Positions 4,871-64,000 of a DNA stretch of 64,000 bases are shown here, one piece after another. Every line of letters starts with the position of its first letter. Position 1 is the first letter of the stretch. Both the position numbers and the translations under genes were made by a program. The notes under the pieces are model-generated. The model was not told the origin of the DNA and made no database searches. It saw only the letters and a list, made by a program, of their open reading frames with translations. Source of the stretch: Blasia pusilla (Eukaryota); contig CM114271.1 of assembly GCA_050084515.1 (NCBI GenBank), forward strand, positions 30,628,001 through 30,692,000. Direction: 5' to 3'.

Positions 4871-5440
4871 GATAGTATGACTGGCCATTTTAGTGTTGGA
4901 CTTATGAATGTTGTTTTTCCGACTTGCAATGCTCTACATTGAAAGTGTGAGAGAGTGAAATATACTAGGTTTATAAGCTCGCCTTTTAGTATGTGTTGTG
5001 GGCATGGTAAGATTCAATTACCTTATTTGACAGCTTCACCTTCTATACTAGCAGAATTACTTTCTAGTATGAGTTCAAATAGTCTTCATTTTTTGCGTAA
5101 TGCACGTGCCTATAATAGTGCTCTTCAATTGGCATCTACTGGGGCACATATGACAGAGCAACGAGGCGGTACAAGAAACTTCAGGATTCAAGGTGGTGTA
5201 TATCATTCTATTGGACCTCTTCATGCTGGAAGTGATGCTCCTCCACAATTCGCGCAAATTTATATTCATGATGATGAGCATCAGATGGAACATAAAAGAA
5301 GGATTATGAGTGGAGATTATCGCGATCAATTGAGGCCAGAGATCTTAAGGGGATTACAAGATATGTTACATGCCCATAATCCATATGTGGCTTTATTTTG
5401 AAATATGGCTATTGATCCATGTAATTCTGACTTTCATATT
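4871..5440 (+). pseudogene. Helitron Rep/Helicase, zinc-finger and N-terminal Rep region (upstream of the insertion)
   Basis: GLMNVVFPTCNALH*KCE...FSMCCGHGKIQLP...RAYNSALQLAS...FRIQGGVYHSIGPL...PQFAQIYIHD...LQDMLHAHNPYV. Confidence 0.88.
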
Positions 5441-5924
5441 TGTCACATCTGAGTAGCCGATAGGCCCAGATCTATCGTGGATAGGGCGTAGGAGCCAGCG
5501 GACTATCTTGAGTGTAACTTTGTCCCACGGTGTCGGATGAGGTTGAGGATAGGTCCATTGTGTCAGGAACGTCGTTTCTGACAACTTTCATGTTGAGGTC
5601 TTTTACAGCCGAGTGACTTGTTGACCAGGTCACCCGCCCCTGGTAACTCTTGTGGCTTGAGTTACCAAGGGGAAGGCTATTTTTAGAGGAAGAGCCTTTT
5701 GGCTCTTCCCAACCCTATATAAGAGAGGAAGATGGCTTTCCTAAGCCATCTTTCTCATGTTGGGCCGTTGGAGCACCTCCCTTGTATGTGTGTGGGATAG
5801 GACTAGGGTGCTAGCGTCCGGATTCCTTGATAGCAAAGGGTGGACGAGGCTCGATATGCCGATGTAGATTGAGGAGTGGAGTTTTAGGCCGGGTGTGCCG
5901 TTTTTACAACTCTTTATTTTTACA
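5441..5924 (+). repeat. Terminal repeat block B1 (LTR-like; promoter, R and U5)
   Basis: About 95% identical by eye to 14457-14937. Contains TATATAA and ends ...TTTTACA. Confidence 0.92.
5716..5722 (+). promoter_or_regulatory. TATA box of element 1; predicted TSS about 5747-5748
   Basis: CCTATATAAG within block B, flanked by the hairpins GGAAGAGCC-tttt-GGCTCTTCC and AAGATGGCTT-tcct-AAGCCATCTT. Confidence 0.65.
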
Positions 5925-5935
5925 TGAGAAAGATG
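5925..5935 (+). promoter_or_regulatory. Putative self-priming primer binding site
   Basis: TGAGAAAGATG lies directly after ...TACA and is the reverse complement of CATCTTTCTCA (5747-5757). No TGG-type tRNA PBS is present. Confidence 0.7.
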
Positions 5936-7079: not shown

Positions 7080-8400
7080 GTGAGATACCAAGGGGTTACC
7101 AGTGAGGAGCTCCCTCGACATCCATCCGTGGTTGGATCGTCATCAAAGGACGCTGGGTCTGGTGACGAGATCACAGACAGAGACAGTAGTACTTGGCAGG
7201 AGATAGACGACATGGGCTATCGGGGCATGCGTCGTTTCTCGGGTGTAGTGGGCACCATCGACTTAGATGATTTTATCCAGGAGTTCGACACATGGTGCAA
7301 ATTCCAGGAGATACGGACCCCGACACGGTTCAACCCTTTCATGGCATGGAAGGGGTTGTTCCAGCACTTAGAGGGTCCTCTGATGGATGACTACATGGAG
7401 TTTTGATCACTATATTCATTAGAGATTGATGCTTGGAGGATGTATTGGGCTCCAGGGTATGTGTCCACTATTGGTTGCGAGGCATATGATAGGATTGTGA
7501 GAGGAGAGAGACCCACACCATCAGCCTGGAGACTAGATGGAGAGGAGGGCAGTGAGATAAGCGATGTGGCAGAGACCTCTGGTGGTAGAGGGCCACCCAG
7601 CTTCAGCCCCACAGTGGAGTTCTTCCGACAGTTGGGGAAGGGCTACCAGGGCGTACGCACCGACAAGCTGAAGAGTCTACAGGATTTTCAGCGACGATCG
7701 GGTGAGAGTCTGAGAGAGGCATTCACACGCATGAGGAGGCTGATCATTGGTACGTTTAGAGTGACTGAGGCGCAGTCAGTCTAGTATTGGTACGGGGTTC
7801 TGGACCGAGAACTACGGAGGAGAGTCCGAGATGCGGTGCTGATTCACACAGCGAAGCCCACATTGAAGGTGGTCTTTGAGTTGTCTGAGCGTATTGAGCT
7901 CAACATGAGTGAGGAGCAGGTAGTGACCGCTGAATTTTCTCGAGAGTCGACGGGTCCACGAGCGACGGTGACCCCACAGGTGCCACAGCGAGCACCAGTA
8001 CCACGGGAGCGGGCCAGTGTGCCTAGAGAGCAGGGCGGGTACCATGAGCCTATGAGGCAACGACCCGTACCTACATATGTTGTCCAGCAGGGACCGATGT
8101 GGTCTTGTTGGACGTGTGGAGGGGCCCATAGACAGAGAGACTGCCCACAGCATGGGAGAGGACCACCAACGCCTCCGATTGCTCAGGAGTCACAGAGGAT
8201 GGCCCCACCACAGCACCTGTGTGACCATTGCCACAGATATGGTCACTCTAGGGATAGATGTTTTGACCTTCGCCGAGGGGCACGTCCAGAGGTAGGCTGA
8301 GGGCCTGGGGGCGGTCGTCCTTGAGGAGGTCGGGGAGTTCTTCCTGGACGTGGTGGTAGAGGACCACCACCAGCTAGAGGAGATGGAGCAGGAGCACCAG
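7080..8400 (+). pseudogene. gag of element 1, with two CCHC zinc knuckles
   Basis: RFSGVVGTIDLDDFIQEFDTWC...QRRSGESLREAFTRMRRL, followed by CWTCGGAHRQRDC and CDHCHRYGHSRDRC. Contains in-frame stops. Confidence 0.85.
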
Positions 8401-9068
8401 AGCCGGCACTTCTCTCACGCATCGATCAATTGGAGCAGAGGATTGCGGCCATGACGATGATGCAGCTTAGGGAAGGCACGGAGCTGCGAGCAGCTATTGT
8501 AACTCCAGCTTCTACCTCTTACCCTGACCCGGGTGAGGATCTCGCCAGTATGGGATTTATGTGTAGTGCAGCCCAGGTTGAGGCAGCTGCAGTGGTGACT
8601 CGGGGTGCTGTGAGAGGCACCGAGCCATCGAGAGGTGGAGTAGAGATTGACCCACCAGAGGGGATCGATGGGCGGCAGGCCAAGGTTCCACAGTCGTTCA
8701 CATTGTCCGAGGCACTACACACACCATCGATGGTGCCTCGACGACCAGCGGTGCCTACAGTTCAGGCACCTACGTCGACGTCAAGAGGAGTTGGAGTGAC
8801 AACTCCTATGCCGGCTCGAGTGGAGTCAGTGTCGACCATAGTGTTGGAGGTGGCCACCAAAGTGAGTCAGACTCCACTATTTTCCGCCATAGAGTTGGCG
8901 ACGTTGGGAGTTGGACCACCTGAGGTGTTCTGGTTGGCCGCCACGTTGTGTGAGCGTGGAGAGATGACTGCTTCTTGTTCAGAGGTAGTTGAGGAGGTGG
9001 TGGACTTGCCCTCAGAGCCGGTGCTGGGGACGTTCCCGACATAGTCAGGGCATGCGGCGGCGGCGAAG

Positions 9069-9581
9069 TTGGTAGATATGCCAGCTCGACCGGCCATAGA
9101 GCGAGCAGTGGTGACACCTCGAGTAGTGTTACTGGATAGCCGAGCTGGAGTATTTTGCTTGGTTAGTCCGACGGGGACAATATACCACCCGCAGCGCGTC
9201 CTACTTGATTCGGGAGCGCAACCCTTGATGTTAGGGAAGGCGGCGTGTTTAGCGTTGGGGTTACGGAAGGCCGACATTGAGCCTTGTCCCTTCCAGATAC
9301 AGACCTCGATTGGGGGCGTATCACCCACTCAGTATATGACTCGACAGGAGATTGTTGTTAGAGTCCAGCCAGAGCATGCGACGGATAGTGCTATGGTGCG
9401 CACATATGCAATTACGACACCAGTTGAGTCGTACGATGTGTTGGTGGGGAGTATAGTGTTATATCCCCTAGGATTCATCCTTGAATTCTGGGAGGAGACC
9501 GTTGCTTATCGGCTAGGATGGCGGTCTGGTGACGGCCGGATGAGTCAGTTACCTATGCAGTTTGTGGGAGGAGGTGGTTGA
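9069..9581 (+). pseudogene. Aspartic protease of element 1
   Basis: VLLDSGAQP active site and YDVLVG motif, in the same frame as gag. Confidence 0.9.
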
Positions 9582-9925: not shown

Positions 9926-10870
9926 GTTAGGGTGTTAGATCTCTTCGGAGGGATTAGCACGGGATTGGCTGCACTATTGCAGGCGGGCATACGAGTGCAT
10001 CAGTACCTTTATGTGGAGAGAGATGAGACCGCGCGGTGAGTATCATTACGTCACGTGGCGAGATTGGTCCACAGGTATCCTGAGTTGTTGCTGATATCTG
10101 CAGTACGAGGATATCAGCATACGCTACCCGCCGACATCTCTTTGGTGGGGGTGCAGGATCTGGATAGAGTTGGCACCATTCATTTGGTGATTGCTGGATG
10201 GCCATGTGAGGGTCATTCATCAGCTGGCCGAGGATTTGGATTGCAGGATCCGAAGTCAGGGATGTTTTGGGAGATGTTGCGAGTATTACAACACTTGCAG
10301 GAGAGTCAGATATGTTCTCCAGCGTACATTTTGGAGAACGTGCCGTTGTTGGGAGACACTCGTGGACGAGTGATGACGAGTGTACATCAGGTGAGGTCCT
10401 GGTTGGGACCTGCTCTGTTGTTAGATGCAGCGAGAGTTGGGTCAGGTGCCCATCTTCCACGACTGTGGTGGATGAACCTGATACCATCAAAGGTACTAAG
10501 TCGAGCATATAGTGGAGTCGAAAGAGCACCACATCTCACAGTGGATGGTATTTTGGGCTCAAGGCGTCGATCTCAGGTGGTGACACGGGATGATAGACCA
10601 CCTTTGGCCATGGCCAATAGGGTGGGGGAGTTGAGGGCAGCCTTACCTACGTTGGTGAGCTTCCCAGCATCCCATGCCTTTCGCCAAGGAGGGCCAGGCA
10701 TTATTTGGGATGAGGTGACCGGAGCATTGGAGGAGCCTACAGCAGATGAGCGCGAGCGCGCCATGGGGTTCACTACCGGTACTACGGCGGTGCCAGGGAT
10801 GACCGAGGCATCCCGGAGACAGGTTTTGGGGCAGGCGATGGACCTCAATTGTCTCACATGGATAGTCAGC
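9926..10870 (+). pseudogene. C5 cytosine DNA methyltransferase domain, DNMT3-like, inside element 1 pol
   Basis: Motifs in canonical order: I VLDLFGGISTG, II YVERD, IV IAGWPCEG, VI YILENV, VIII LLDAARVGSGAHLPRLWWMNL, IX ERERAMGF, X SRRQVLGQAM. One stop at 10037-10039. Confidence 0.93.
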
Positions 10871-11180
10871 CTAGGTGTGGCTAAGCAGAGACGAATGCGA
10901 GTGTCATCCATGCCGTCACGTCCACGAGTTGGACCATTGCCCTCTGTGGTCAATCATGAGGCATTGGCTGGGGACGAGACGAGGAGAGATAGGCACCCAT
11001 GGACTTCCTGGGACGTCATCCGAGCAGAGAGTGCGAAGGCGGCTAGAGTAGCACATGTTCAATTTTTTGGATGTGGAGCATGGTGTAGAAGGTCAGAGTG
11101 GAGTGGTTGTTGCGGAGGTGGCTAGGGTTGCTACATAGCAACCAAAGCCGGAGGTTGCGTCCTCTCCGAGTGAGGTCACG

Positions 11181-12631
11181 ATGGAGACTTGGGAGCCTGT
11201 GATAGGTCTCAAGTTGATAGGAGGAGAGCGACGGCGAGTTCATAGGTTTCTGAGAGGGCATGTCAGTTGTTTTGCCTTCAATATGAGAGACTTGGGTACG
11301 CTGCAGGGTCTCGGGATACGGATTGAGTTGGCTAGTGATACGCCGATCTTTCGTCAACCCTACAGGTATTCTGATATGGAGCGAGTCTTGATTCAGAGCA
11401 GGAGTCAGGACTTGTGGAGTTTTCACATGGGGAGTATGCATCTGCCACAGTCATGCCGGCGAAGAAGGATATGTATGGCAATTGGACGGATAGGCGGATG
11501 TGTGGAGATTACCGTCCTATCAACCGACAGACGAGGTCAGATCGATATGCCATGCCTACTCCTGAGGAGATCTTTGATGCGATAGGGCATGCAAAGATCT
11601 TCAATACTTTAGATCTCCGTGCTGGCTATCATTAGCTTCTTATCAGGTTGGAGGATAGGGAGAAGACAACATTCTGGGGGATGGATTGGTTCGGGAGAGA
11701 TTGCTTGTATCAGTGGCGGTTCTTACCATTTGGGTTGAAGAACGCGCCTGCAGAGTTTCAAAGAGTGATGGATAGGATTCTGGCTGGCTTGGATTTTGTA
11801 CGATGTTACATAGATGATATTCTTATCTTCAGTTCCACGGTTGAGGAGCATGAGCGACACTTGGAGGAGGTGTTTTGGCGATTTCAGTTACATGGACTGA
11901 AGTTACATCCAGGCAAGTGCAGATTCTTTCAAGAGCAGATTGAGTACTTGGGACACACCATATACCCAAGTGGGTTAGGTGTTCAGCAGACGAAGGTAGA
12001 GGCTATTGCGCAGATTCCACGCCCTACAGATGTGAGTCGAGTCCGAGCATTTCTTGGACTGACGAACTTCTATTGACGGTATGTTAAGGGTTTTAGTGCG
12101 ATCACAAAGTCTTTGACCTTGTTGACGAGACTTGATCAGGTTTGGTTGTGGGGAGATGATCAGGAGCGAGCATTTCAAGAGCTCAAGGACAGGTTGATGT
12201 CCTCACCCATTTTACAGAGACCGGTTAGGGGTCGCCCATTCCAGTTACATAAGGATTGGAGCATGTTGGATCTAGGAGCAGTGCTTACTCAGAGGGATGA
12301 CGAGGAGAAGGAGTTCGTTGTGGCTTATGCGAGCCGATCGAACAACATTGCAGAGGCAAAGTACAGCTCCTATGAGGGAGAGTGCTTGGCTGTAGTGTGG
12401 GCCGTGGCACATTTTAGGTGCTATTTATTTGGCAACCCTTTCACACTTATCACCGATCATCAGCCGTTGAGGTGGTTGATGGAGTCCGACAAGCTTACGG
12501 GCAAGCTTGCCCGGTGGGCTATATTACTACAGGAGTATGAGTTTGAGGTGATTCATAGGCCACGTTGGCTTAACCAGGATGCGGATGGGTTGAGTCGTAA
12601 CCCATGTCCGAGTCAGAGAGACGACACATGA
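11181..12631 (+). pseudogene. Reverse transcriptase and RNase H of element 1
   Basis: RRMCGDYRPIN, LDLRAGYH, LPFGLKNAPAEFQ, YIDD, DWSMLDLGAVL, YEGECLAVVWAV, TDHQPL. Confidence 0.95.
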
Positions 12632-12989
12632 GCTCGATGGCACGGAGAGAGTGATGAGGAGATGGTGCCCGGTTGGCATGCATGTGGCTATCTTTGTTGG
12701 TTGACTATGGTAGGTCAGCCACAGGTGATGACTCCAGTGGTGGGGTTGGATGATGAGTCTTTGGATCCGGAGGTTAGTGAGGAGGTGACAGGTGGTCGTG
12801 ATATCCATGACGACGTGGAGGTTGTGGAGTTCTTGCGCACTGGCGTCATTGCGAGTATAGTGAGTGCTAGGGAGTGGGATCGGATCCTACAGAGAGACAA
12901 GAGGTTCAAGTGGGAGGGGACTCACATTTTGCGGGTATGGGGAGATGGTAGGACACGAGTGGTACCTCACCCTTCCCAGCGAGCACGTA

Positions 12990-14100
12990 TAGTGCGACAT
13001 GCCCATGAGGAGTTGGGACATATCGGAGTAAAGCGTACTTACAGCTCACTCTAGGTCCAGTATTGGTGGCGCGGCATGCATACTGGGGTACAGTAGTTTG
13101 TGGCCAGATGTATGGTATGTAACAGAGTGCAAGCATCCTTCAATGCTCCCACTCCGCAGTTACATCCTTTTCCGATTATGGATTTAGGTTATCGGTGGAG
13201 TTTAGACTTTGCGGGACCTTTGCCATTGACAGGACGTCATCATAGGTACGTGTTGGTCATGGTGGAGCATTTCTCCAAGTGGATAGAGTTGGTGGCACTA
13301 CCAAACAAGGCGAGCGAGGGAACAGCTTATGCGTTTCTAGATCGTGTGCTTAGTCACTTTGGTGCATCGGCGGAGGTGTTGACTGACCAGGGTACCGAGT
13401 TGAGGGGAGAGTTTCAGGCCTTGTGTGATCAGGCGCTGATAGATCACCGCACCACGTCCAGAGATCATCCTGAGGCGGATGGGTTGGCGGAGAGAGTGGT
13501 ACATACGGTGAAGAGAGGATTGCGCAAGTATGGCTTGCAGCAGGGACTGTTGAGGGAGTGGGACCTACAATTGCCATGGTTGGCTATGGGTTATCGCTTT
13601 AGTCGGCAGGCATCCTTGGCGTCATTTTCACCGCACTTTTTGCTCTTTGGGAGAGAGCCAGATTTACCTACAGTGATTCGACGTGACATGGTGGAGGTGT
13701 TAGATCTTGATGATCCAGATGTGTGGGTACAAGCATGTTCTCAGAGGGCAGAAGTTTTTCGTAGAGTTATGCCTATGGCCTTTGAGAACTTAGCTATTGC
13801 CCAACATAGAGATACATTGAGGTATGCGACCATTCGTAGAGGAGGTTCTCGTCCAGGGATTAGGAGGCTCCTCTTGGAGATTACGTGTATTTACAGCATG
13901 CGGCACCCACGACGCTAGATGTCATTGCAGGGCGCACGATCCTACGTGTGCGCGAGGTATTACCGACCGGAGTCCTCATGTTGGAGGGACGGGATGGTAT
14001 GGTTTGGAAGGATCATGAGCGCAATTGTGCGCCATGTCATCTTCCGAACGTAGATGGGACGGTGGATCCGAGCTTGGCAGTGGTACTTGCAAGCTTGAGG
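12990..14100 (+). pseudogene. DDE integrase of element 1
   Basis: HHCC (HEELGH...CMVC), WSLDFAGP, LTDQG, DGLAERVV. Confidence 0.93.
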
Positions 14101-14240
14101 TGTATGTTGTGCGGATCTGCGAGGGGTGCAGCCACCATGTTGGTATGTGATGGTTGTTCTCGAGGGTGGCATATGTCATGTCTGACCCCCCTCTTGATGT
14201 GGTTCCCACGGGACGATGGATATGTCCGAGATGTGTATAG
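14101..14240 (+). pseudogene. PHD finger at integrase C-terminus (element 1, frameshifted)
   Basis: CMLC...MLVCDGCSRGWHMSCL...PTGRWICPRC follows the C4HC3 pattern. Confidence 0.88.
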
Positions 14241-14307
14241 GGTAGTAGGTCATGTTAGAAAGATGTGATATTTTCTTTCTAGAGTTGGGAGGATCCAACT
14301 TCCAGCT

Positions 14308-14317
14308 AGGGGGGCGG
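14308..14317 (+). promoter_or_regulatory. Polypurine tract of element 1
   Basis: AGGGGGGCGG lies immediately before block A (TTGTGTGATC). The equivalent in element 2 is GGGGGCGAG at 63527-63535. Confidence 0.65.
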
Positions 14318-14454
14318 TTGTGTGATCTCCATGTATATGTATGAGTTGATTTTTGTACATGTGTGGATCGACCTGTGTGTGGGGAAGATCGGTGTTGTGT
14401 GGTGTACATATGACCAGCGATGTATGTTGTGTAGCGATATGTATGCGCACGACA
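14317..14454 (+). repeat. Repeat block A1 (138 bp, ends GCACGACA)
   Basis: Near-identical to 14938-15075, with 5 differences counted. Confidence 0.92.
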
Positions 14455-14456
14455 GC

Positions 14457-14937
14457 TGTCACATCTGAGTAGCCGATAGGCCCAGATCTATCGTGGATAG
14501 GGCGTAGGAGCCAGCGGACTATCTTGAGTGTTAACTTTGTCCCACGGTGTCAGATGAGGTTGAGGATAGGTCCATTGTGTCAGGAACGTCGTTTCTGACA
14601 ACTTTCATGTTGAGGTCTTTTACAGCCGGGTGACTTGTTGACCAGGTCTCCCGCCCCTGGTAACCTGTGCGTGTAGGTTACCAAGGGTAGGGCTATTTTT
14701 AGGGGAAGAGCCTTTTGGCTCTTCCCAACCCTATATAAGAGAGGAAGATGGATTTCCTAAGCCATCTTTCTCATGTTGGGCCGTTGGAGCACCTCCCTTG
14801 TATGTGTGTGAGATAGGACTAGGGTGCTAGCGTCCGGATTCCTTGATAGCAGAGGGTGGACAAGGCTTGATATGCCGATGAAGATTGAAGAGTGGAGTTT
14901 TAGGCCGGGTGTGCCATTTTTACTACTCTTTGTTTTT
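14457..14937 (+). repeat. Repeat block B2
   Basis: Copy of 5441-5921. It lacks the terminal ACA and joins directly to A2. Confidence 0.92.
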
Positions 14938-15075
14938 GTTGTGTGATCTCCATGTATATGTATGAGCTGATTTTTGTACATGTGTGGATCGACCCGTGTG
15001 TGGGGAAGATCGGTGTTGTGTGGTGTAGATGTGACCAGCGATGTATGTTGTGTAGTGATATGTATGCGCACGACA
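14938..15075 (+). repeat. Repeat block A2
   Basis: Copy of 14317-14454. Its last 21 bp recur exactly at 15364-15384. Confidence 0.92.
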
Positions 15076-15388
15076 TGTAGTTCCAAACGGATTGCTCCCA
15101 AGATCCCAATGGGTTAGCAACAAATATAGAATCGGTGCCTAGGTTCTTTATTGTGTCCCAAAGTGTCGCGCATGCTAAACGTCATTTGGAGCCATACTTA
15201 GTTTAAGTCTAATTGGATTCTAAGATCCAATTCTGGCTGTAGAAGGCGTCCGATAAGTGGAATATAACTTGTATTGGACTATAGTTCCGAACGTCCTTTA
15301 GTTGGTGGTACGTGTTGTTGCGTCTCCCGGAGAGCTCCTTCGGTCGGAAATAGTTGGTCTATTGTGATATGTATGCGCACGACATATT

Positions 15389-43195: not shown

Positions 43196-43227
<32 letters not shown>

Positions 43228-54424: not shown

Positions 54425-54742
54425 CATACCTTATGTAGGGCCGTAGTGTCTAGGTAGAGATGCGGTTTCATACATAGGGTTGAGGGTTATGCAATTGAGG
54501 GTGACTTTTCCAATAGGGCCCGCTCTTAGGTTGGAGGATATAGTGTGGAGTGCACTCAAAAAACAGTTAGTTCTTTGAGTTGAGCCTGTTGCGTTGGGAG
54601 TTAACCTTGGTAGTGAGAAGAGCTCTTGGCTATGATGGTTCCCGCAAGCTTTGACCTGGATTCTCCCATCGTGGAGTGGGTTTGGCTTGATTGTATGTGA
54701 TTCTATATGTGTTTCATGACTGTAGGTCTTTCACAGATTTCA
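54425..54742 (+). repeat. Block B1 of element 2 (lacks the first about 50 bp)
   Basis: Direct repeat of 63693-64000. The right boundary is inferred from the putative PBS at 54743-54754. Confidence 0.85.
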
Positions 54743-56229
54743 CTCACAGAACTAGAGTAGATCGATGGTAGCTTCGATTGTGGATCAGTAGGATCTGGTT
54801 AGGGTTGATTGTGTACTCAGCCGTGGATGTTTGTGGCTTGTGGCCTATGTTGGAGGTGGGAATCTGGTGCGTGATTGGTTGAGAAAGAAGCGCCTTGCTG
54901 AGAGCTTTGCAACGCGCTTTAGATCGCCAGATTTCGTTAAGGGAGTTGGAAGTTATCAAGGATTGAAGATACTGGTTCGTGTTCGACGGTTTCCTGATGT
55001 AGAGAGCTTGGAGTGCGGAAGCTCTGTTGAAGTTCATCCAGATCGGGTGACAGGTTCCTGTTGCTACTTGTATTGGGATCTTATGTGAAGCTATCTGCTT
55101 GAGTGTGTAGAGTGTTGCGGATTTCTGCAGGCATGAATCTGGGCGGAAGCGCTGTCGGATTTGCAATTCTGGAGATGTATGGACAACAAGTTTGTCTGAT
55201 TTTTATCTTGGAGTACAGAGCTTGGTTGTAGCTGATTTTTTGTAAAGAGATAGCTATGGTGGTCAATTGAATTTTGGTCGAAAAAAAATCAATTTTGGTT
55301 GAGGATTTGTGGAGTAATTGGTGATTGGAATTTCGCGGACTAGCTCAAGGTCTGGCTATGGTGGACAGCAGATCGGAGGGGCTGGTTGGTTGGTGATTTG
55401 TCTGTTGTTGGAGACGCCTATCCCATTGGGGGCGCCCTGGTTGGGCCTCTCTCCATAGCAAAGCATGGCGATAGGGGCATGTCTCAAGCATTTCTCGAGG
55501 CTTCGAGGCAACTCGTGGTAGCTCGGAGCGAGTGGGCGTGAGAGGCGGAGTAAGGAGCAAGGAGCAAGGAGCAAGCTTGCTTGCTTGGGCGTGAGGCAGT
55601 TTTTGCAAGATTTGTGATTTGAGTGTTGCATAACTGGTCATCCATCTTTGGGCTATTATGCCTGGAAGACGCTTAACTGCTGAGTTCTTAACTATGCCAA
55701 TGTACACACTGGTGTAGCTCATTTGGTGTTGTTCGGAGATGTGTTAGGCGCTTTATGCATCTCAGGTTTTTGGTTGATGGATCTCTAGCGCATAGTAGGG
55801 TGTAGCCTCTCCATGCAAGTGATATTTTCAGATGCTACGAGTCCGACTAGCACGTCATCGACCGCGGCGGAGTAGCTATTGCGTTAGAATTGTGTGGTGG
55901 GTTCTGTGGATTTAGGGGGCGCCACGTTTGGTGGATTTTGTTACCTTGATTTCCATTTGCGATTGGAGGGTTGTCGTTGGACTTCCTCTGTTTGGATCCC
56001 CTCCATCGTTGCTTCTTGCTTGGGGCCCATTGTTAGGGATGTTGATTTCCATAGTAGTGTTACTCTTGTGTGCTACCGGTAGTGAGACTGGAGTGATGAC
56101 CAGTAGACCGTGGGAGGCTTCTTGTGGTGATGAAAGGTTAGGTTGCCTACACCCATAGCTATTAGAGCTAGAATAGTACAGCGACATCAACGTCACTTGG
56201 TTACTTAGTGGTGGTAATTTGATGGTGGT

Positions 56230-57582
56230 GTGGCATCGGTGTTGGTCATCACGGAGCTGTCTGGTGGTCTGGTTGGGGACCGTGGTGCGGACAGTGGTGG
56301 TTTTACACGGAGTGAATTGAGGTATCGGCTACCTTTTCCACTTCCGACAGTTGATGAAGAGGAGGACGAGGGTGTTCCAAACACCAAGTCTTCTACGTTG
56401 TTATCGAGTGTTGCAGCTCCATTGATCTGGGACATGGACGGGATATATAGGGCCATGAAGGGCCCAGGACGATACTCGGATGCAGTGGGCACCATTGAGT
56501 TGGAGGACTTCATGCACGAGTTTGATACGTGGTGTGATATGCAGATGTTGCGGAACGCCACGTTGTTTACACCCTTCTTGGCTTGGAAGGGGTTGTTTCA
56601 GCAGTTGGAGGGGCCACCCATGGATGATTACCATGAGTTTAGGAAGGACCATGTTGCTGAGATTGAGGCGTGGAGAAAATATTGGTCTCCAGGTTATGTG
56701 TCTATCACCCATGGTGGTATTGGTAGTAGTGCTACTACTATGCTAGCCAGCCCGACGTTGAGTGGTACGAGTATGAGCCGGAGTGGGGGTACCAATGGAG
56801 GAACCCATGGAGGTACCAGTGGGGGTACTAGTGCCCCACCATCGTTCAGCCCGATTGCAAAGTTCTTCAACAGGTTGAAGAAGAACTATCAGGGAGTGAA
56901 GACACAGAAGTTGAGGAGTCTTCAGGAATTTGAGCGAAAGACTGGTGAGAGTCTTCGTGAGTCATACACTCGTATGCGACGCTTGATTTCACTTACCCAG
57001 GGTGTGACTGAGGCTCAATAAGTCCACTTTTGGTATGGGATCTTGGATAGAGAGTTGCGCCGCAAGGTACGTGATGCTACTCTTATGAGTGATGATTCAC
57101 CCACATTGACCCATGTGTTTGCTCTATCTGAGAAGATTGAGCTTAACATGGTGGAGGAGAGAGTGGTGACATCCGCATTCAATAGGGATACAACTACTAC
57201 TTCTCGTGTTCAGCAGTCCACCTCACAATCTCATAGTAGTGATGGTGGTAGTAGTAGTGGGAGTCGTGGGGGGTACACACGACCTCAGTCAGGTCCTAGA
57301 GGGTCACCTGCGTAGAGACCATTGCCTTCATTTGCTGCCCCGCAGCAAGGACAGTCATGTTGGACATGTGGAGGTGATCATGTTAGGAGGTTTTGTCCCC
57401 AAGAGGATGGGACACGGACTTTGGAGGATGGGCCTCAGTCGGCCACAACTCAGTGTGATCATTGCGGGAGACCAGGTCATCCTCGAGAGCGTTGCTTTGA
57501 TCTTCATCCAGAGTTGAGATCAGGCTGCGGCCGTGGTGGAGTAGCTCCGCGAGGCCGAGGTGGTAGGGATGGTAGAGGTTGA
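56230..57582 (+). pseudogene. gag of element 2
   Basis: GTIELEDFMHEFDTWC, ERKTGESLRESYTRMRRL, CWTCGGDHVRRFC, CDHCGRPGHPRERC. Confidence 0.85.
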
Positions 57583-58241
57583 CCAGTGGTTGGAGAGCCT
57601 ACGGTGGCTACCCCTACCACTACAACAGAGTTAGCTATGGTCGTCGAGATTGAGCTTGATTGGAGCAGAGTTGGCTACTATGGTCGGTATCCAAAGAAAG
57701 AGCGTGTTCGGGAGCAAGGGCTTCCACCTCTTATGGAGGGGATGATCTCTCTTATATGGCGAGTGCAGCACAGGTTGAGGCATCAACTGCAGTTATGAGA
57801 GGAGCCACTCGAGCGTCAGAGCCACGTGGTGCTACTGTGGAGTTGGATCCACAAAGGGGTGAGGCTGGGAGGCAGGCTAGGCTTCCCGAATCATTCTTGT
57901 TGTTTTAGGTGCTTAGGACTCCATCCATGGTTCCTATGCAGCCTATTGAGCCGACAGTGGGGACAAAGGCATCTACATCGCGTGTAGTAGATACGGATGC
58001 AGCATCTAGTGCAGTATTGCGGATGGCAACTTCAGTGTTGGGATCCCCATTGTTTTCGGCCACGGAGCTGATGGCTTTAGGAGTTGATGAGGTGGATGAG
58101 GGTGTTGCGGTGGAGCGACCCTTTTTGTCAGGTGTTGCATTGAGTACCAGTGCTACTTGGCAAGCAACAGCGGCAAAGATGGATGCATTACCAGCTTGAC
58201 GAGCCATTGATCGTGAGAGGCTTACACCTGGTGTATGTAAG

Positions 58242-58691
58242 TTGGACAACCAGAGTGGGATATTCCGATTGGTGAGTCCTATAGGTCAGGTGTATAGACC
58301 AGATAGAGTCTTGTTAGACTCTGGCGCCCAACCTTTGATGTTGGGAAAGGCGGCATGTATTGGTTTGGGTATTCGGAGGTCAGAGCTTGAGCCTTGCCCA
58401 TTCCAGATTCAAACATCACTTGGAGGAGCCAAGGATAGGTCTCAATTCATGACACGGGAGAAGTTGTCTCTACAGTTGAGACCAAATCATGCGACTGATA
58501 GCTCTCGGTTGGGAGTACCTGTAGTGGTCACATCAGCCGAGTCGTATGATGTACTACTTGGAGGAGCAGTATTGTATCCGATGGGTTTTCAGATGGACTA
58601 CTGGACTGAGACAGCGTCTTATAGACCTGGTTGGCAGTCCGGGGATGGACGTATGAGCCAGGTTCCTGTGAGATTTATTTATGGGGCTTGA
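58242..58691 (+). pseudogene. Aspartic protease of element 2
   Basis: VLLDSGAQP and YDVLLG. Confidence 0.9.
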
Positions 58692-59045
58692 CCAAGAGGG
58701 TCTTCCCCAACGGTGTTAGCATCTGTGGCTGGTTTTAGTGGAATAGTCACTTGGCCAGGAGACTTTTTGGAGGGTAATGTTTCTGCTATGGATTCTCCTG
58801 TGCATGAGGAGGTAAAGGAGGTCCCTAGTTTTGCAGTAGTGGCATCCTCATCGTTGGATGTGCCACTTTGGAGTTCAGGCGGTGCACTACGGCAAGAGGC
58901 TGATCGCCTAGTGTAGGAGGCTTGGTGTGAGGCTGTTATACCTCACGAGGAAGAGGAGGCCCCACGGCGGACTCCTACTTCTGGTCCAGTTGGGTTATCC
59001 CCTTTGGATACTACACCCATTGTATGGCAGTATCCGCCAAAGGGC

Positions 59046-59990
59046 ATTTTTGTGCTAGATCTCTTTGGTAGGATTAGCACTAGTTTGGCTGCAGTGTTGC
59101 AAACCGGTATTCCTGTGCAGAGATACGTGTATGTGGAGCGAGATGAGACGGCCCAAAGAGTCTCATCCCGACATATGGGTCAGTTGATGCGGAGATATCC
59201 TCAGTTGTTGCCGCCATCAACTATTCGTGGGTACCAGCGTGCTTTGCCGTCACACATTGCATTGTTGGAGGCGCAAGATCTTGAGAGGGTTGGTCCTGTG
59301 GATTTGGTGATTGCTGGATGGCCATGTCAGGGTCATACACGTGCTGGTCGTGGTGAGGGATTACACGACCCTAGGTCTCGATTGTTTTGGGAGATGTTAC
59401 GGGTGTTACGACATCTTCGGGTTCATCAGGCTCGTGCTCCAACTTACATTCTGGAGAATGTTCCATTGTTGGGTGACACTCAGACCCAGATGATGGCGAG
59501 TGTTCATGAGGTGCGGTCTTGGATTGTACCAGCGGTGTTGTTGGATGCAGCGCGAGTTGGCTCGCGTTCACATCGTCCACGCTTGTGGTGGAGAAACTTG
59601 TTGCCTAGGGAGGTTCTACGTCGAGCATATGATGCAGTGCAGCGGGATTCTTGCCTTACAGTGGATAGTATCTTGGATACTGGGCGACTTTCTCAGGTGG
59701 TGAGGGTTATTGATCCGTCACCCATGGTAGTGGTGAACCGTGTGGGCCAGCCTAGGATGGCACTATGTAGATTTCTGAGTTTTCCCTCGTCACATGCCTA
59801 CAGGGAAGGTGGTTCCGGGCTTGTATGGGATTCTCATGTGCGACAGTTGGTGGAGCTTAACGCTGATGAGAGAGAGCGTGCGATGGGATTTGCTATTGGT
59901 GTGATAGCGGTTGCTTCCATTTCTGAGGCTTCAGGACGTCATGTGTTGGGTCAAGCCATGGACCTGAATTTTTTGACTTGGATTTTGAGT
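59046..59990 (+). CDS. DNMT3-like C5 cytosine methyltransferase domain of element 2 (no stop within the domain; surrounding polyprotein disrupted)
   Basis: VLDLFGRISTS, YVERD, DLVIAGWPCQG, YILENV, LLDAARVGSRSHRPRLWWRNL, ERERAMGF, GRHVLGQAM. Same frame as PR and RT. Confidence 0.92.
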
Positions 59991-60245
59991 CTTGGTATGG
60001 CCGAGTAGCGTCGACTTCGGACTATGTCTATGGGTCTTCCACCCCTTGTGATGAGCTCGATGGCTACCGGGACGGTAGAGACATCGGCAAGGGGCGAGGA
60101 GAATAGTATTTTGCATCCTTGGAGTAAATGGGATGTAATGGCTGGGAATGTGGAGTTGGTTGCTCATGTTGGTTGAGAAGTTATTTGCTTAGATGATGGT
60201 GTAGCTAAGGGTGTACCATCTTATGAGGGGGTTATCTAGTAGCCA

Positions 60246-61730
60246 ATGGCGTCATCCTCTCCCTCTAGTGTGCTAGTGGAGGAGATTTGGGAGCCATTAC
60301 TTGGGCCCAAGCTTAGGGGAGGTGAGAAACGACGCTTGACACAATTCCTACGTGCTTATAGGAGTTGTTTTGCCTTATGCATGAAGGAGTTGGGTTCTTT
60401 GGTTGGACCCGGTATACGGATTGATTTGGCTAGTGATTCGCCAATCTTCCGTCGTCCCTACCGATATAGTGATATGGAGAGGGACCTGATTCAGAGTAGG
60501 ACGTTGGACCCTTTGGAGGCTGGATTAGTGGAGTTGTCGCATGGAGAGTATGCATCAGCCACTGTCATGCCTACTAAAAAGGATGTGCATGGCAACTACA
60601 CAAATAGGCGGATGTGTGGAGATTACGGTCCTATCAATCGGCAGACCAAGGCCGATAGGTATGTCATGCCTACACCTGAGGAGATCTTTGATGTGGTGGG
60701 ACAGGAAAATATTTTTAGTACTTTGAATCTTCGGGCAGGATACCATCAGTTGCCAATTCGAGAGAGAGACAAGGCCAAGACAACATTTTGGGGTGTCAAC
60801 TCTCATGGCAAGGATTGTTTGTACTAGTGGAAATTCTTACCCTTTGGGTTGAAGAATGCACCTGCCGAGTTTCAGAGAGTGATGGACAAGATCCTAGCAG
60901 GGTTGGATTTTGTTCGGTGTTACATTGATGATATCTTGTGTACAATAACAGGGTGGAGGAGCATTAGATACATTTGTAGATTGTGTTTGAGCGGTTGAAA
61001 ACTCATGGTCTACGTTTGCATCCAGGAAAGTGTAAGCTCTTCCATGAGGATGTTGAGTACTTGGGTCATGTGATCTATCCAGGTGGTTTGGGAGTTCAGC
61101 AAGCAAAGGTGGAGGCTATTGCACTTATTCTTGGTCCGGTAGATGTGAGTAGAGTTCGGGCATTCATGGGATCAGCGAACTACTATCAGAGGTATGTGAA
61201 GGGATTTAGTGCTATGGTAAACCCTTTGAACCAATTGCTGAAATCAGATCAAGAGTGGCACTGGGGAGATGATTAGGAGAGAGCTTTTGTGGAGTTCAAG
61301 GCCCAGTTGGTAACGGCGCCTATCTTGAGGAGACCTATCAGAGGGCGCCAATTTCAGTTACACACTGATTGGACTAGGTTGGGACTTGGAGCGGTGTTGA
61401 CACAACATGATGATGAGCACATGGAGTTTGTGGTGGCCTATGCAAGTCGTTCGAATAATGCAGCGGAGTCGCGCTATAGTTCATATGAGGGAGAGTGCTT
61501 GGCAGTAGTGTGGGTTGTGGCACACTTTAGATGTTACTTGTTTGGCACAAAGTTTACCCTTATTACTCATCACCAGCCGCTCAAGTGGTTGATGGAGTTT
61601 GACAAGCTTACAAGGAAGCTTGCACGGTGAGCTCTTATCTTACAAGAGTATGACTTCCAGTTGGTACATAGACCTGGAGTTGCCAACCTTGATGCTGATG
61701 GGTTGAGTAGGAACCCATGTACTAGCCAAG
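60246..61730 (+). pseudogene. RT and RNase H of element 2
   Basis: RRMCGDY, LRAGYHQ, LPFGLKNAP, YIDD, HTDWTRLGLGAVL, YEGECLAVVW. Confidence 0.93.
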
Positions 61731-62109
61731 AGGATGCAACTGGGGCTAGATGGCATGGCGAGGTTGATGAAGAGATGGTGCCAGGTTGGCATGCATCCGC
61801 CTTTTTATGTTGGTTAGGGGTGGACTCTAGTATGGAGGAAAAAATGACATCTTACTCTAGTCAGAGGGTAGATGGCCAGCCTTCAGATCCTAAGGTTGGA
61901 GATGGTGGTACGGATCAGCATGATATTCATGATGATCCGTTGGTGTTGGAGTTCCTACGGACCAGTAGGATGCCAGGCATAGTGAGTGCCAAGGAGCGAG
62001 ACCGTGTTCTTCAACGTGCTAAGAGGTATCGATTGGAGGGAACACATATTCTCCGTGTGTGGGAGGATGGTAGAGTACGAGTAGTGCCACATTTGGCTTA
62101 GAGAGAGCG

Positions 62110-63361: not shown

Positions 63362-63535
63362 AAGAGGTAGATGACTTGATCTTTGCATGATATGGATTAC
63401 AGATGTGCGACGAACGATGGGGCAATCTAGTACCCGGCCTTCTGATTCGTGCACCCACGAAGGTGTATAGCATGTAGTAGATGTATAGGGCTACTTGGGA
63501 GTTAGAGGGACCTAACCGCCAGTTATGGGGGCGAG

Positions 63536-63640
63536 TTGTGGTACAGTTGTGTTTGTGTATGCTCTCGTCTATGTTATGTATGTATGTGAGTATGGTATGT
63601 CAGCGATGTATGTTGTATGACGATGTGGATTCACACGACA
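63536..63640 (+). repeat. Block A of element 2
   Basis: Follows the PPT-like GGGGGCGAG and ends CAGCGATGTATGTTGTATGACGATGTGGATTCACACGACA, then AC-TGTCA. Confidence 0.75.
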
Positions 63641-63642
63641 AC

Positions 63643-64000
63643 TGTCATGACCATACATATTATGTCGTAGAGTATAGTGTGCTAGTAGAGGCCATACCTT
63701 ATGTAGAGCGGTAGTGTTTAGGTAGAGATGCAGTTTCATACATAGGGTTGGGGGTTACTCACTTGAGGGTGACTTTTTCAGTAGGGCCCGCTCTTAGGTT
63801 AGAGGATATAGTGTGGAGTGCACTCAAAGAACAGTTAGTTCTTTGAGTTGAGCCTGTTGCGTTGGGAGTTAACCTTGATAGTGAGTAGAGCTCTTGGCTA
63901 TGGTGGTTTCCGCAAGCTTCGACCTGGATTCTCCCATCGTGGAGTGGGTTTGGCTCGATTGTATGTGATTCTATGCGTGTTTTATGACAGTATGTCTTTC
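63643..64000 (+). repeat. Block B2 of element 2 (truncated by the window end)
   Basis: Starts TGTCA and matches 54425-54732. Confidence 0.85.

What the first reader, a model, noticed from the sequence alone, without database searches (positions are those of the whole stretch)
9926..10870. Retrotransposon carrying its own DNMT3-like DNA methyltransferase between protease and RT
Seen: C5-MTase motifs I, II, IV (PC), VI (ENV), VIII, IX and X in non-permuted order. LLDAARVGS.AH.PRLWW.NL, ERERAMGF and RRQVLG parallel the DNMT3 motifs (IDAKEVSAAHRARYFWGNL, EMERVFGF, RQRLLG) rather than the circularly permuted DRM. gag-PR share one frame in element 1 and PR-DNMT-RT share one frame in element 2, implying a single polyprotein that is cleaved and packaged. 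Established: DNMT-carrying retrotransposons are reported in dinoflagellates and the charophyte Klebsormidium. Inference: this extends them to what looks like a land-plant genome. The enzyme may methylate cDNA in the particle or the insertion site.
Basis: partly seen in the sequence, partly recalled or inferred. Interest (0 to 1): 0.88.

Follow-up and report, generated by a model that had tools for sequence, protein, structure and literature searches.

The report
Moss-type jumping gene carrying DNA methyltransferase
Two decayed copies of a plant retrotransposon each carry their own DNMT3-like DNA-methylating enzyme, and they belong to a large family with intact members in liverworts and mosses, where its role could be tested.

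Summary
Window 9926-10870 encodes a non-permuted C5 cytosine methyltransferase (Pfam PF00145; best solved relatives DNMT3A/B/C, far above DRM) lying between protease and reverse transcriptase of a Ty3/gypsy-type element (E1, 5441-15384). A second copy, about 73% identical, lies at 54425 to the window end (E2). Both copies are dead: stops, frameshifts and hits in conserved motifs. The family is alive elsewhere. Organism-named relatives are liverworts and mosses (Marchantia, Calypogeia, Riccia, Sphagnum), near-intact copies occur in metagenome contigs, and dN/dS of the methyltransferase is 0.13-0.18.

New points:
- In intact relatives gag-PR-DNMT is one ORF that ends in a conserved in-frame UAG (UAG-CAR-YYA context), followed in frame by RT-RNaseH-integrase-PHD.
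- The repeats are split (A-coding-B-A-B), as described for Klebsormidium KnitGypsy-Dnmt3, yet the ends are TG..CA with a 4-bp target duplication.
- A sister clade in green algae carries the same DNMT between RNase H and integrase.

It is a new member (bryophyte host range) of a known kind. What the enzyme does is untested. My best guess is methylation of the element's own new DNA. Structure prediction and a phylogeny with named DNMT3/DRM sequences could not be run.

The parts
5437..5440 (+). E1 target-site duplication TATT, left copy
   Evidence: The same TATT lies at 15385-15388. DNA contigs of run X1 join about 5423-5434 directly to 15383, i.e. Helitron copies without the insertion.
5441..5921 (+). 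E1 repeat A1 (starts TGTCAC)
   Evidence: 95.2% identical to 14457-14937. Differences: 24 substitutions, 17 of them transitions, and 2 indel columns over 480 aligned columns.
7080..8300 (+). E1 gag remnant with a CCHC knuckle at 8220-8261; in-frame stops at the ORF breaks
   Evidence: ORFs 7080-7406, 7407-7784 and 7785-8300 are all in frame 0. CCHC pattern found. The homologous ORF1 of L011 hits zf-CCHC.
9045..9581 (+). E1 aspartic protease (LLDSGA at 9201-9218)
   Evidence: The homologous stretch in L023 and L026 hits Asp_protease_2. The E2 copy gives only a weak gag-asp_proteas hit, E 0.067.
9926..10870 (+). E1 DNMT3-like C5-MTase domain, decayed: TGA at 10037-10039, PCE instead of PCQ, HLPR instead of HRPR
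   Evidence: PF00145 33.1 bits; motif coordinates; E1 differs at 5 of 61 family-conserved columns.
11136..11144 (+). E1 TAG CAA CCA, homologue of the family's conserved stop between DNMT and RT
   Evidence: It is in frame with the downstream RT-leader ORF 11139-11585. The upstream frame is shifted by an indel.
11375..12076 (+). E1 reverse transcriptase (YIDD at 11807-11818)
   Evidence: RVT_1 E 1.6e-24.
12077..12631 (+). E1 RNase H
   Evidence: RT_RNaseH E 1e-34.
12632..13918 (+). E1 integrase (H2C2 zinc finger plus DDE core)
   Evidence: Integrase_H2C2 E 5.7e-4 and rve E 1.4e-13.
14101..14181 (+). E1 PHD finger after the integrase
   Evidence: PF00628 E 1.4e-6.
14304..14316 (+). E1 polypurine-like tract AGCTAGGGGGGCG directly 5' of repeat B1
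   Evidence: The same 13-mer lies directly 5' of B1 in L021; near-matches in L023 and E2.
14317..14454 (+). E1 repeat B1
   Evidence: 96.4% identical to 14938-15075.
14451..14460 (+). Palindromic B1/A2 junction GACA-GC-TGTC
   Evidence: Exact in E1, L021 and L026; one mismatch in E2 (63637) and L023.
14457..14937 (+). E1 repeat A2
14938..15384 (+). E1 repeat B2 (14938-15075, ends CGACA), interrupted by a 288-nt insert (15076-15363) flanked by a 21-nt duplication. The true element end is at 15384.
   Evidence: empty-site joints to 15383.
54425..54732 (+). E2 repeat A1; about 50 nt of its 5' end are missing when compared with A2
   Evidence: 92.5% identical to 63693-64000.
56218..57495 (+). E2 gag remnant (CCHC at 57454-57495)
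58200..58691 (+). E2 protease (LLDSGA at 58311-58328)
58917..60008 (+). E2 DNMT3-like ORF, 363 aa and open: motif I LDLFGRISTS 59055-59084, AGWPCQGH 59313-59336, ILENVP 59448-59465, motif VIII 59559-59600, IX 59868-59891, X 59946-59969. It ends in a premature TAG.
   Evidence: PF00145 39.5 bits; DNMT3A E 6e-12; E2 differs at 10 of 61 conserved columns; in relatives a Q stands where E2 has its stop.
60237..60245 (+). E2 TAG TAG CCA at the family's conserved stop position
60243..63361 (+). E2 RT, RNase H, integrase and PHD (YIDD 60921-60932, PHD 63221-63301), with stops and frameshifts
   Evidence: PHD E 1.3e-7.
63521..64000 (+). E2 polypurine-like tract (63521-63533), repeat B1, junction GACAACTGTC (63637-63646) and repeat A2, cut by the window end

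Best explanation
The finding is the catalytic domain of a DNMT3-like cytosine-5 DNA methyltransferase encoded by a Ty3/gypsy-type retrotransposon. The element's order is gag(CCHC)-protease-DNMT-[UAG]-RT-RNaseH-integrase-PHD.

The window holds two diverged, dead copies: E1 at 5441-15384, inserted in a Helitron, and E2 from 54425 to the window end. The family is large and under purifying selection. Intact-looking members occur in liverworts and mosses, and a sister clade in green algae carries the DNMT between RNase H and integrase.

Shown:
- the domain identity and the motif order;
- its position in the element;
- the decay of both window copies;
- purifying selection on the DNMT;
- a conserved in-frame stop after the DNMT;
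- split direct repeats (A-coding-B-A-B) with TG..CA ends and a 4-bp target-site duplication.

Inferred:
- gag-PR-DNMT is the main translation product, and RT-RNaseH-integrase-PHD is made by readthrough of the leaky UAG.
- The DNMT therefore enters the particle at Gag-like amounts and is released by the protease.
- It methylates cytosines of the element's newly made DNA, or of the fresh insertion. The PHD finger on the integrase reads chromatin at the target.

The confidence given applies to the identity and anatomy. For the inferred steps I would put readthrough at about 0.6 and methylation of the element's own new DNA at about 0.4.
For: Identity: PF00145 is above its cut-off in E1 and E2. PDB ranking puts DNMT3A/B/C at 58-63 bits against 31 bits or less for DRM and bacterial enzymes.

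Position: PR-DNMT-RT holds in E1, E2, L011, L023 and L026. Among 307 stored homologues, 50 read PR-DNMT and further ones read PR-DNMT-RT or longer.

Selection (dN/dS of the DNMT):
- E1 against E2: 0.176, with off-frame controls at 0.84 and 1.92. For comparison RT is 0.086, RNase H 0.069 and integrase 0.125.
- E2 against 16 metagenome copies: 0.07-0.27.
- Intact pairs: L023-L024 0.149 at dS 0.24, and L023-L026 0.131.

Conserved stop: TAG CAG TTA, TAG CAA TCA and TAG CAA CCA lie in frame on both sides in L023, L024, L026 and L011, and E1 has the homologous TAG CAA CCA. A stop stands in the same column in 23 of 23 aligned copies, 16 TAG and 7 TAA. ORF1 gene models of Marchantia and Calypogeia end 88-92 residues after motif X.

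Repeats: A1...B1-A2-B2 is seen in E1, L021 and L041/L042. Target duplications are TATT (E1) and AAGG (L021). Empty-site contigs exist in run X1.

Family size: 422 clusters at 50% identity score E<=1e-30.

Hosts: bryophyte names.

Transcription: sense-oriented RNA reads come from sibling copies. All 20 of 20 reads over 10208 carry C, which gives PCQ.
Against: Both window copies are inactive. E1 has stops, frameshifts, PCE and HLPR. E2 has the motif I G-to-R change and a premature stop. Nothing in the window itself can act.

No enzymatic activity, substrate (DNA or RNA) or sequence context was tested.

Readthrough is inferred from sequence only. The close metagenome group has CAA CCC, which departs from the YYA consensus. 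The L048 lineage has no stop between DNMT and RT. L011 also carries a TAG between PR and DNMT in a different context.

Across all 152 copy pairs that gave a value, the median dN/dS is 0.45 and the maximum 0.97, as expected if most copies decay neutrally after insertion.

A phylogeny against named DNMT3, DRM and Klebsormidium sequences could not be made, so 'DNMT3-like' rests on similarity ranking.

RNA depth over the DNMT region is very low, 0 to 1.2.
Confidence: 0.8

Rival explanations
1. The methyltransferase is a passenger. A host DNMT3 fragment was captured by chance in a few copies and has no role in the element.
For: Both window copies are broken. Many family copies carry 1 to 7 stops in the DNMT.
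Against: The domain sits at the same place in dozens of independent polyprotein models. dN/dS is 0.13-0.18 between lineages and between intact copies, close to the integrase value. Catalytic motifs are kept in 33 or 34 of 34 family rows. There are 422 diverged clusters.
Confidence: 0.03
2. The domain is conserved but does not methylate the element's DNA. It might methylate RNA, methylate host chromatin to blunt host silencing, or serve as a DNA-binding or scaffold module in the particle.
For: de Mendoza et al. 2018 (Discussion read) report that one Symbiodinium LINE-borne DNMT failed to methylate DNA in yeast, and they raise RNA as a possible substrate. No activity data exist for the gypsy type. 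The L031 lineage has EC for PC and ENT for ENV.
Against: The full set of catalytic motifs, including PCQ and ENV, is nearly invariant, which argues for catalysis. The closest solved relatives are de novo DNA methyltransferases.
Confidence: 0.15
3. The conserved stop after the DNMT is not read through. RT-RNaseH-integrase-PHD is expressed another way, such as reinitiation, splicing or a second transcript, or the stop simply marks two separate proteins.
For: RNA depth is higher over 11097-14500 than over the gag-DNMT stretch, which a shorter second transcript could produce. The close group has CAA CCC rather than CAR YYA.
Against: The stop is in frame with both ORFs in 4 of 4 intact loci, and CAR follows it in them. 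ORF2 has no conserved start codon at its beginning in the sequences shown: the residues after the stop are Q-L-E, Q-S-Q and Q-P-V. The RNA reads come from mixed sibling copies at very low depth.
Confidence: 0.25
4. The sequences are host DNMT3 genes, or domesticated derivatives, that merely lie next to transposon debris.
For: UniRef labels some Marchantia and Sphagnum models 'DNA (cytosine-5-)-methyltransferase'.
Against: The DNMT shares a frame with PR and RT and lies inside terminal repeats with a target-site duplication. No PWWP or ADD domain was found in any ORF scanned. Run X1 laid 94,195 contig pieces on E1, so the family is highly repeated.
Confidence: 0.02

Closest known systems
KnitGypsy-Dnmt3 of Klebsormidium nitens (de Mendoza et al. 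2018, PMC5890265; sections 9 and 11 and passages read)
   Same: A gypsy-type LTR element with a non-rearranged DNMT3-related domain inside the polyprotein. Ka/Ks is below 0.2. The paper says the repeat structure is 'the same as that of a DIRS retrotransposon', and defines that as A-coding region-B-A-B. E1 and L021 show exactly this arrangement.
   Different: The host is a bryophyte, not a charophyte alga. I could not compare the position of the DNMT in the polyprotein, the PHD finger or the stop, because figures and supplements are not held. No Klebsormidium sequence appeared in any search, so there was no direct sequence comparison.
Green-algal gypsy elements with RT-RNaseH-DNMT-integrase-PHD (gene models of Monoraphidium neglectum, Haematococcus lacustris, Cymbomonas tetramitiformis)
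   Same: The DNMT clade is homologous (217-405 bits to the family profile). The pol backbone is the same: RT-RNaseH 45% and integrase-PHD 44% identical to L023. A PHD finger follows the integrase in 16 of 18 scanned.
   Different: The DNMT lies between RNase H and integrase, not between protease and RT. The two arrangements fall on the two sides of one branch of the DNMT tree (53 against 83 rows, FastTree local support 88).
SymbioDIRS-Dnmt3 of dinoflagellates (same paper)
   Same: A DNMT3-type domain inside Pol, and A-coding-B-A-B repeats.
   Different: It has a DIRS-type RT and a tyrosine recombinase. Here there is a DDE integrase (rve), TG..CA ends and a 4-bp target duplication.
Host DNMT3A/3B/3C (solved structures, e.g. 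2qrv, 6kda, 8tci)
   Same: They are the best-scoring solved relatives. Motifs I, IV, VI, VIII, IX and X align in the same order.
   Different: No PWWP or ADD domain. The domain is embedded in a retrotransposon polyprotein. The residues after the catalytic Cys are Q-G-H, where DNMT3A has N-D-L.
Plant DRM2
   Same: A distant DNMT3-related catalytic domain.
   Different: DRM matches only through motifs I-IV, which lie at the C-terminal end of the DRM chain (query 19-145 against chain 225-349), and scores 26-31 bits against 63 bits for DNMT3A. The order here is not permuted.
Chromoviruses (gypsy elements with a chromodomain after the integrase; recalled, not from a call)
   Same: A chromatin-reader module is fused to the integrase C-terminus.

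Membership tests
C5 cytosine DNA methyltransferase (PF00145) | Profile match above the curated cut-off | tested here: met
   33.1 bits (E1) and 39.5 bits (E2) against a cut-off of 22; 46-51 bits in intact relatives.
C5 cytosine DNA methyltransferase (PF00145) | Catalytic PC(Q) cysteine, ENV and AdoMet motif I all intact | tested here: inconclusive
   The Cys is kept in both copies. E1 has PCE and an in-frame TGA. E2 has G-to-R in motif I. All motifs are intact in L011, L023, L026 and Marchantia Mp_4g09160.
DNMT3 subfamily | Closest to DNMT3 among characterised methyltransferases | tested here: met
   A family profile against PDB gives DNMT3A 63.5, DNMT3B 60.8 and DNMT3C 59.1 bits, then tobacco DRM 31.1, M.HhaI 29.5 and DRM2 26.4 bits.
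DNMT3 subfamily | Falls inside the DNMT3 clade in a phylogeny with named DNMT1/2/3/5/6, DRM and bacterial sequences | not testable with these tools
   The best 150 representatives were all transposon-type. No named canonical DNMT3 sequence was returned.
DNMT3 subfamily (canonical animal form) | N-terminal PWWP and ADD domains | tested here: not met
   Pfam found neither in the E1 or E2 ORFs nor in the ORF1 of L011, L023 or L026.
DRM (domains rearranged methyltransferase) | Circularly permuted motif order (VI-X before I-IV) | tested here: not met
   The order is I, IV, VI, VIII, IX, X along the + strand.
Ty3/gypsy LTR retrotransposon | PR-RT-RNaseH-integrase(DDE) order | tested here: met
Ty3/gypsy LTR retrotransposon | Two identical complete LTRs at the ends | tested here: not met
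   The 5' end carries only A. The 3' end carries B-A-B. No B-like sequence follows A1: score 16 against a shuffle mean of 17.4.
Ty3/gypsy LTR retrotransposon | TG..CA termini and a short target-site duplication | tested here: met
   E1 TGTC...GACA with TATT; L021 TGTC...GACA with AAGG (2 of 2 complete copies examined). Empty sites are seen in run X1.
DIRS-like elements | Split direct repeats A-coding-B-A-B | tested here: met
   E1, L021 and L041/L042. The definition is taken from the PMC5890265 legend.
DIRS-like elements | Tyrosine recombinase instead of a DDE integrase | tested here: not met
   rve and Integrase_H2C2 are present.
KnitGypsy-Dnmt3 | Direct sequence relatedness of DNMT and RT to the Klebsormidium elements | not testable with these tools
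   No Klebsormidium protein appeared among the listed hits. The paper's figures and supplements are not held.
Type I programmed stop-codon readthrough (UAG CAR YYA; consensus recalled) | A UAG followed by CAR YYA, in frame with the downstream ORF | tested here: met
   L011, L023, L024 and L026 (4 of 4 intact loci), plus the E1 homologue. The close group has CAA CCC.
Type I programmed stop-codon readthrough (UAG CAR YYA; consensus recalled) | Measured readthrough | not testable with these tools
   Needs a reporter assay.

The most novel reading that the evidence does not exclude
A single old lineage of gypsy-type retroelements runs through green plants, from chlorophyte algae through Klebsormidium to liverworts and mosses, and carries an epigenetic writer (DNMT3-like) together with a reader (PHD). 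In this reading:
- The writer moved once, between the RNaseH-integrase linker and the C-terminus of Gag-PR.
- In the bryophyte form it is made at Gag-level amounts, upstream of a leaky UAG.
- The elements replicate through a junction-bearing, circle-like intermediate. Their integrase opens it at the conserved palindrome GACA-GC-TGTC, which would explain DIRS-like split repeats combined with a target-site duplication.
- With very many copies per genome, they may contribute to the host methylome of bryophytes.
Probability: 0.25. Interest if true: 0.8.

Novelty: new member of a known kind. Interest (0 to 1): 0.55.

Why it matters
Retrotransposons that encode a cytosine methyltransferase are paradoxical, because cytosine methylation is the host's main way of silencing them. 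Their role has stayed open since they were described in Symbiodinium and Klebsormidium, neither of which is easy to manipulate.

This work shows that the gypsy-DNMT3 type is abundant in bryophytes, and that Marchantia polymorpha, a tractable model, has apparently intact gag-PR-DNMT gene models. That makes the question experimentally approachable.

The conserved leaky-type stop puts the DNMT on the Gag side of expression, which constrains models of what it acts on. The split repeats with integrase-type ends and a target duplication are an unusual replication anatomy. Annotators should also know that many 'DNA (cytosine-5-)-methyltransferase' gene models in bryophyte genomes are transposon ORFs, not host DNMT3 genes.

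Tried and rejected

Not possible with the tools at hand:
- A phylogeny with named DNMT3, DRM or Klebsormidium sequences, because none was returned.
- An RT phylogeny against REXdb lineages, because no such library is on hand.

Sequencing runs: no RNA holder is listed in the run index for 9000-12000.

Repeats: I looked for a B-like sequence after A1 to rescue a canonical LTR and found none. I looked for a conserved primer-binding site after A1 in E1 and L021 and saw no obvious shared motif, so I make no PBS claim.

Rejected readings:
- A host gene fragment or a chance match (see the rival explanations).
- DRM, because the motif order is not permuted.

Literature: nine searches found no report of DNMT-carrying gypsy elements in liverworts, mosses or chlorophytes. 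PMC12344493 (passages read) and bioRxiv 10.64898/2026.05.21.726589 (passages read) mention only 'streptophytes', citing the 2018 paper. Supplements are closed, and those of PMC5890265 and PMC12344493 may list such elements.
Full report
WHAT IS THERE

The window holds two related elements on the + strand. E1 has a 481-nt repeat at 5441-5921 and again at 14457-14937 (95.2% identical). E2 has a repeat at 54425-54732 and again at 63693-64000 (92.5%), cut by the window end. E1 and E2 are about 73% identical in nucleotides over gag, DNMT and pol.

Pfam on the stop-to-stop ORFs of E1 gives, in order:
- DNA_methylase PF00145 (10040-11125; 33.1 bits, cut-off 22)
- RVT_1
- RT_RNaseH
- Integrase_H2C2 and rve
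- a PHD finger (13864-14268)

A CCHC knuckle lies at 8220-8261 and a protease motif, LLDSGA, at 9201-9218. E2 has the same order, with an open 363-aa DNMT ORF at 58917-60008 (PF00145, 39.5 bits) and a PHD finger.

WHAT KIND OF METHYLTRANSFERASE

phmmer of the E2 ORF against all PDB chains puts DNMT3A first (E 6e-12), then DNMT3B and 3C. Tobacco DRM scores 8.7e-5, M.HaeIII 1.9e-4 and DRM2 0.07.

A profile of six family members sharpens this: DNMT3A 63.5 bits, DNMT3B 60.8, DNMT3C 59.1, then DRM 31.1, M.HhaI 29.5 and DRM2 26.4. DRM matches only through its C-terminal motifs I-IV, as expected for a permuted enzyme.

No PWWP or ADD domain was found. So 'DNMT3-like catalytic domain, not DRM' is supported by similarity ranking.

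THE WINDOW COPIES ARE RELICS

E1:
- an in-frame TGA at 10037-10039, between motifs I and IV;
- frame changes between PR and DNMT, and around the DNMT/RT boundary;
- PCE instead of PCQ, and HLPR instead of HRPR;
- it departs from the family at 5 of 61 strongly conserved columns.

E2:
- departs at 10 of the 61 columns, including the second glycine of motif I (G to R);
- ends in a premature TAG where relatives have Q.

The differences between the repeat copies are mostly transitions: 17 of 24 substitutions in E1 and 17 of 23 in E2.

THE FAMILY IS REAL, LARGE AND SELECTED

The word-indexed search found 199 near-length relatives. Of the 15 listed hits that carry an organism name, 14 are bryophytes (Calypogeia fissa, Sphagnum troendelagicum and S. 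tenellum, Marchantia polymorpha and M. paleacea, Riccia sorocarpa). One is a 2.4-kb contig labelled as an Obscuribacterales MAG.

Among longer proteins there were 43 hits, and all 16 organism-named ones are bryophytes. Fourteen are Marchantia polymorpha gene models of 949-1333 aa. One of them, MARPO_0091s0058, combines RT, RNase H and DNMT.

Mp_4g09160 (1278 aa) has CCHC, motifs I, IV (GWPCQG), VI, IX and X. It ends 90 residues after motif X.

A profile search of 1.84 billion representatives found 9853 hits at E<=1e-3, 1811 at E<=1e-10 and 422 at E<=1e-30. The best 150 all score at least 217 bits, and many are polyproteins of up to 3456 aa.

A metagenome scan returned 50 loci. Three are near-intact:
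- L023 has a 1369-aa gag-PR-DNMT ORF followed by a 1047-aa RT-RNaseH-integrase-PHD ORF.
- L026 is alike.
- L011 has gag/PR, DNMT and RT in one frame, separated by single stops.

dN/dS (Nei-Gojobori, my script):

| Comparison | Domain | dN/dS |
|---|---|---|
| E1 against E2 | DNMT | 0.176 (off-frame controls 0.84, 1.92) |
| E1 against E2 | RT | 0.086 |
| E1 against E2 | RNase H | 0.069 |
| E1 against E2 | integrase | 0.125 |
| E1 against E2 | gag N-terminus | 0.39 |
| E2 against 16 non-redundant metagenome copies | DNMT | 0.07-0.27, dS about 0.7 for 15 of them (L011: 4.3) |
| L023 against L024 (intact) | DNMT | 0.149 at dS 0.24 |
| L023 against L026 (intact) | DNMT | 0.131 |

Over all 152 pairs that gave a value, the median is 0.45 and the maximum 0.97. 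This fits neutral decay after insertion.

A CONSERVED STOP AFTER THE DNMT

In L023, L024, L026 and L011 the DNMT ORF ends in TAG. The next two codons are CAG TTA, CAG TTA, CAA TCA and CAA CCA, and the RT ORF follows in the same frame. This matches the UAG-CAR-YYA leaky-stop context known from tobamoviruses; that consensus is recalled, not taken from a call.

E1 has the homologous TAG CAA CCA at 11136-11144, in frame with the RT leader. E2 has TAG TAG CCA at 60237-60245.

In an alignment of E2 with 22 metagenome loci, several of them near-identical pairs, a stop occupies the same column in 23 of 23 rows (16 TAG, 7 TAA). In the 22 loci it is followed by CAA CCC.

Marchantia and Calypogeia ORF1 models end 88-92 residues after motif X.

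I infer that gag-PR-DNMT is the main product and that pol is made by readthrough. This is not shown. One diverged lineage (L048) has no stop there. L011 has an additional TAG before the DNMT, in another context.

REPEAT ANATOMY

E1 is not bounded by two equal LTRs. Its layout is:
- A1 (5441-5921);
- the coding region;
- a purine tract AGCTAGGGGGGCG (14304-14316);
- B1 (14317-14454);
- the dinucleotide GC;
- A2 (14457-14937);
- B2 (14938-15075).

B1 and B2 are 96.4% identical. Nothing B-like follows A1.

The last 21 nt of B2 recur at 15364-15384, around a 288-nt insert. The element therefore ends at 15384 (…CGACA), and TATT flanks it on both sides.

Contigs of DNA run X1 join about 5423-5434 directly to 15383. 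These are Helitron copies without E1, which fixes the boundaries.

L021 shows the same A1...B1-A2-B2 layout, the same purine tract, TGTC...GACA ends and an AAGG duplication. L041/L042 show the same layout.

The B1/A2 junction is the palindrome GACA-GC-TGTC. It is exact in E1, L021 and L026, and has one mismatch in E2 and L023.

de Mendoza et al. 2018 describe 'A-coding region-B-A-B' as the DIRS arrangement and say KnitGypsy-Dnmt3 has the same repeat structure. The bryophyte elements share this feature, but they have a DDE integrase and a target-site duplication.

The purine tract precedes B1, and the junction looks like an LTR-LTR circle junction. A replication route through a junction-bearing intermediate that the integrase opens at the palindrome is therefore conceivable. 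This is speculation.

A SISTER ARCHITECTURE

Of 21 long representatives scanned with Pfam:
- 18 read RT-RNaseH-DNMT-integrase, 16 of them with a PHD finger;
- 1 reads CCHC-DNMT-RT-RNaseH-integrase;
- 2 show only the DNMT.

Domain order was then taken over the 307 stored proteins. On a FastTree tree of 203 DNMT domains (53 protease-side, 83 integrase-side, 67 undetermined), the two arrangements need one change. They lie on the two sides of one branch with local support 88, which is below the tool's 95 mark.

The pol backbone is shared. L023 against P0170 is 45% identical over RT-RNaseH and 44% over integrase-PHD.

Of the 7 organism-named integrase-side hits, 6 are chlorophytes (Monoraphidium neglectum; Haematococcus lacustris, three hits; Cymbomonas tetramitiformis; Gonium pectorale, weak). 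One is a contig labelled as a Minisyncoccia MAG.

E1 and E2 fall in a 22-row set, supported at 100, together with the Marchantia and Calypogeia models.

EXPRESSION AND ABUNDANCE (OBSERVATION ONLY)

Three RNA-seq runs with the same coded species label as the best DNA holders gave 202, 186 and 236 reads on 5300-15500. Nearly all are 95-99% alike, so they come from sibling copies rather than from E1. Over 11097-14500 almost all have the first mate on the minus strand. That indicates sense RNA if the libraries are of the usual stranded type. Depth over the DNMT is 0 to 1.2.

At 10208, 20 of 20 RNA reads carry C, which gives PCQ where E1 has PCE. DNA run X1 laid 94,195 contig pieces, so the family is highly repeated.

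HOW IT MOST LIKELY WORKS

The element encodes its own de novo-type C5 methyltransferase. Placement inside the Gag-PR precursor (bryophyte form) or inside Pol (algal form) means that the enzyme should be packaged with the genome. The most economical reading is that it methylates the newly made element DNA or the fresh insertion. de Mendoza et al. proposed this for DIRS-borne DNMT3 (Discussion read). The PHD finger on the integrase is a plausible chromatin reader for target choice. All of this is inference.

COMPARISON AND NOVELTY

The kind, gypsy-DNMT3 in a streptophyte, is known. Nine full-text searches found no report of it in liverworts, mosses or chlorophytes. Two later papers speak only of 'streptophytes' (passages read). 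Supplements that might list such elements are closed.

I file it as a new member of a known kind. It comes with three added observations that may be new: the leaky-type stop, the split repeats combined with a target duplication, and the relocated DNMT in an algal sister clade.

Noticed in passing
window 4943-5401 and 15385-about 17800: A Helitron is interrupted by E1. ORF 15368-16429 hits Helitron_like_N (E 1.8e-55). Contigs of run X1 show copies of this Helitron without the insertion.
   Followed up: partly
window 15076-15363: A 288-nt segment sits inside the last 21 nt of repeat B2, flanked by a 21-nt direct duplication (GTGATATGTATGCGCACGACA). Its origin is unknown. X1 summed word depth in the bin that holds most of it (15189-15500, with flanking Helitron) is 149, against about 45,800 in the preceding bin.
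   Followed up: no
window 5922-14316 and 54733-63692: Both elements are strongly G-rich over C on the coding strand: G 31-33%, C 18-20%, GC skew 0.2-0.3. CpG observed/expected is 0.58-0.75. I did not determine whether this is the family's own composition or a strand-biased mutation.
   Followed up: no
window 40000-46000: Another stretch with GC skew 0.20-0.26, but only three ORFs of 110 aa or more. It may be an old element remnant.
   Followed up: no
P0221, P0282 (representative proteins): Some algal-type polyproteins carry a G-patch domain between the DNMT and the integrase.
   Followed up: no
P0041, P0354: Two family members are labelled by their source as bacterial MAG proteins (Obscuribacterales, Minisyncoccia), on contigs of 2.4 and 10.4 kb. 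They are probably eukaryotic contigs that were binned wrongly.
   Followed up: no
L031:3970-4872: A diverged lineage (34% identical to E2) reads GWECQG and ENT where the family has GWPCQG and ENV. It may have lost catalysis.
   Followed up: no
window 30563-32380 (+) and 48250-49338 (-): Likely host genes between the two elements: an RRM-domain ORF and a protein kinase ORF.
   Followed up: no
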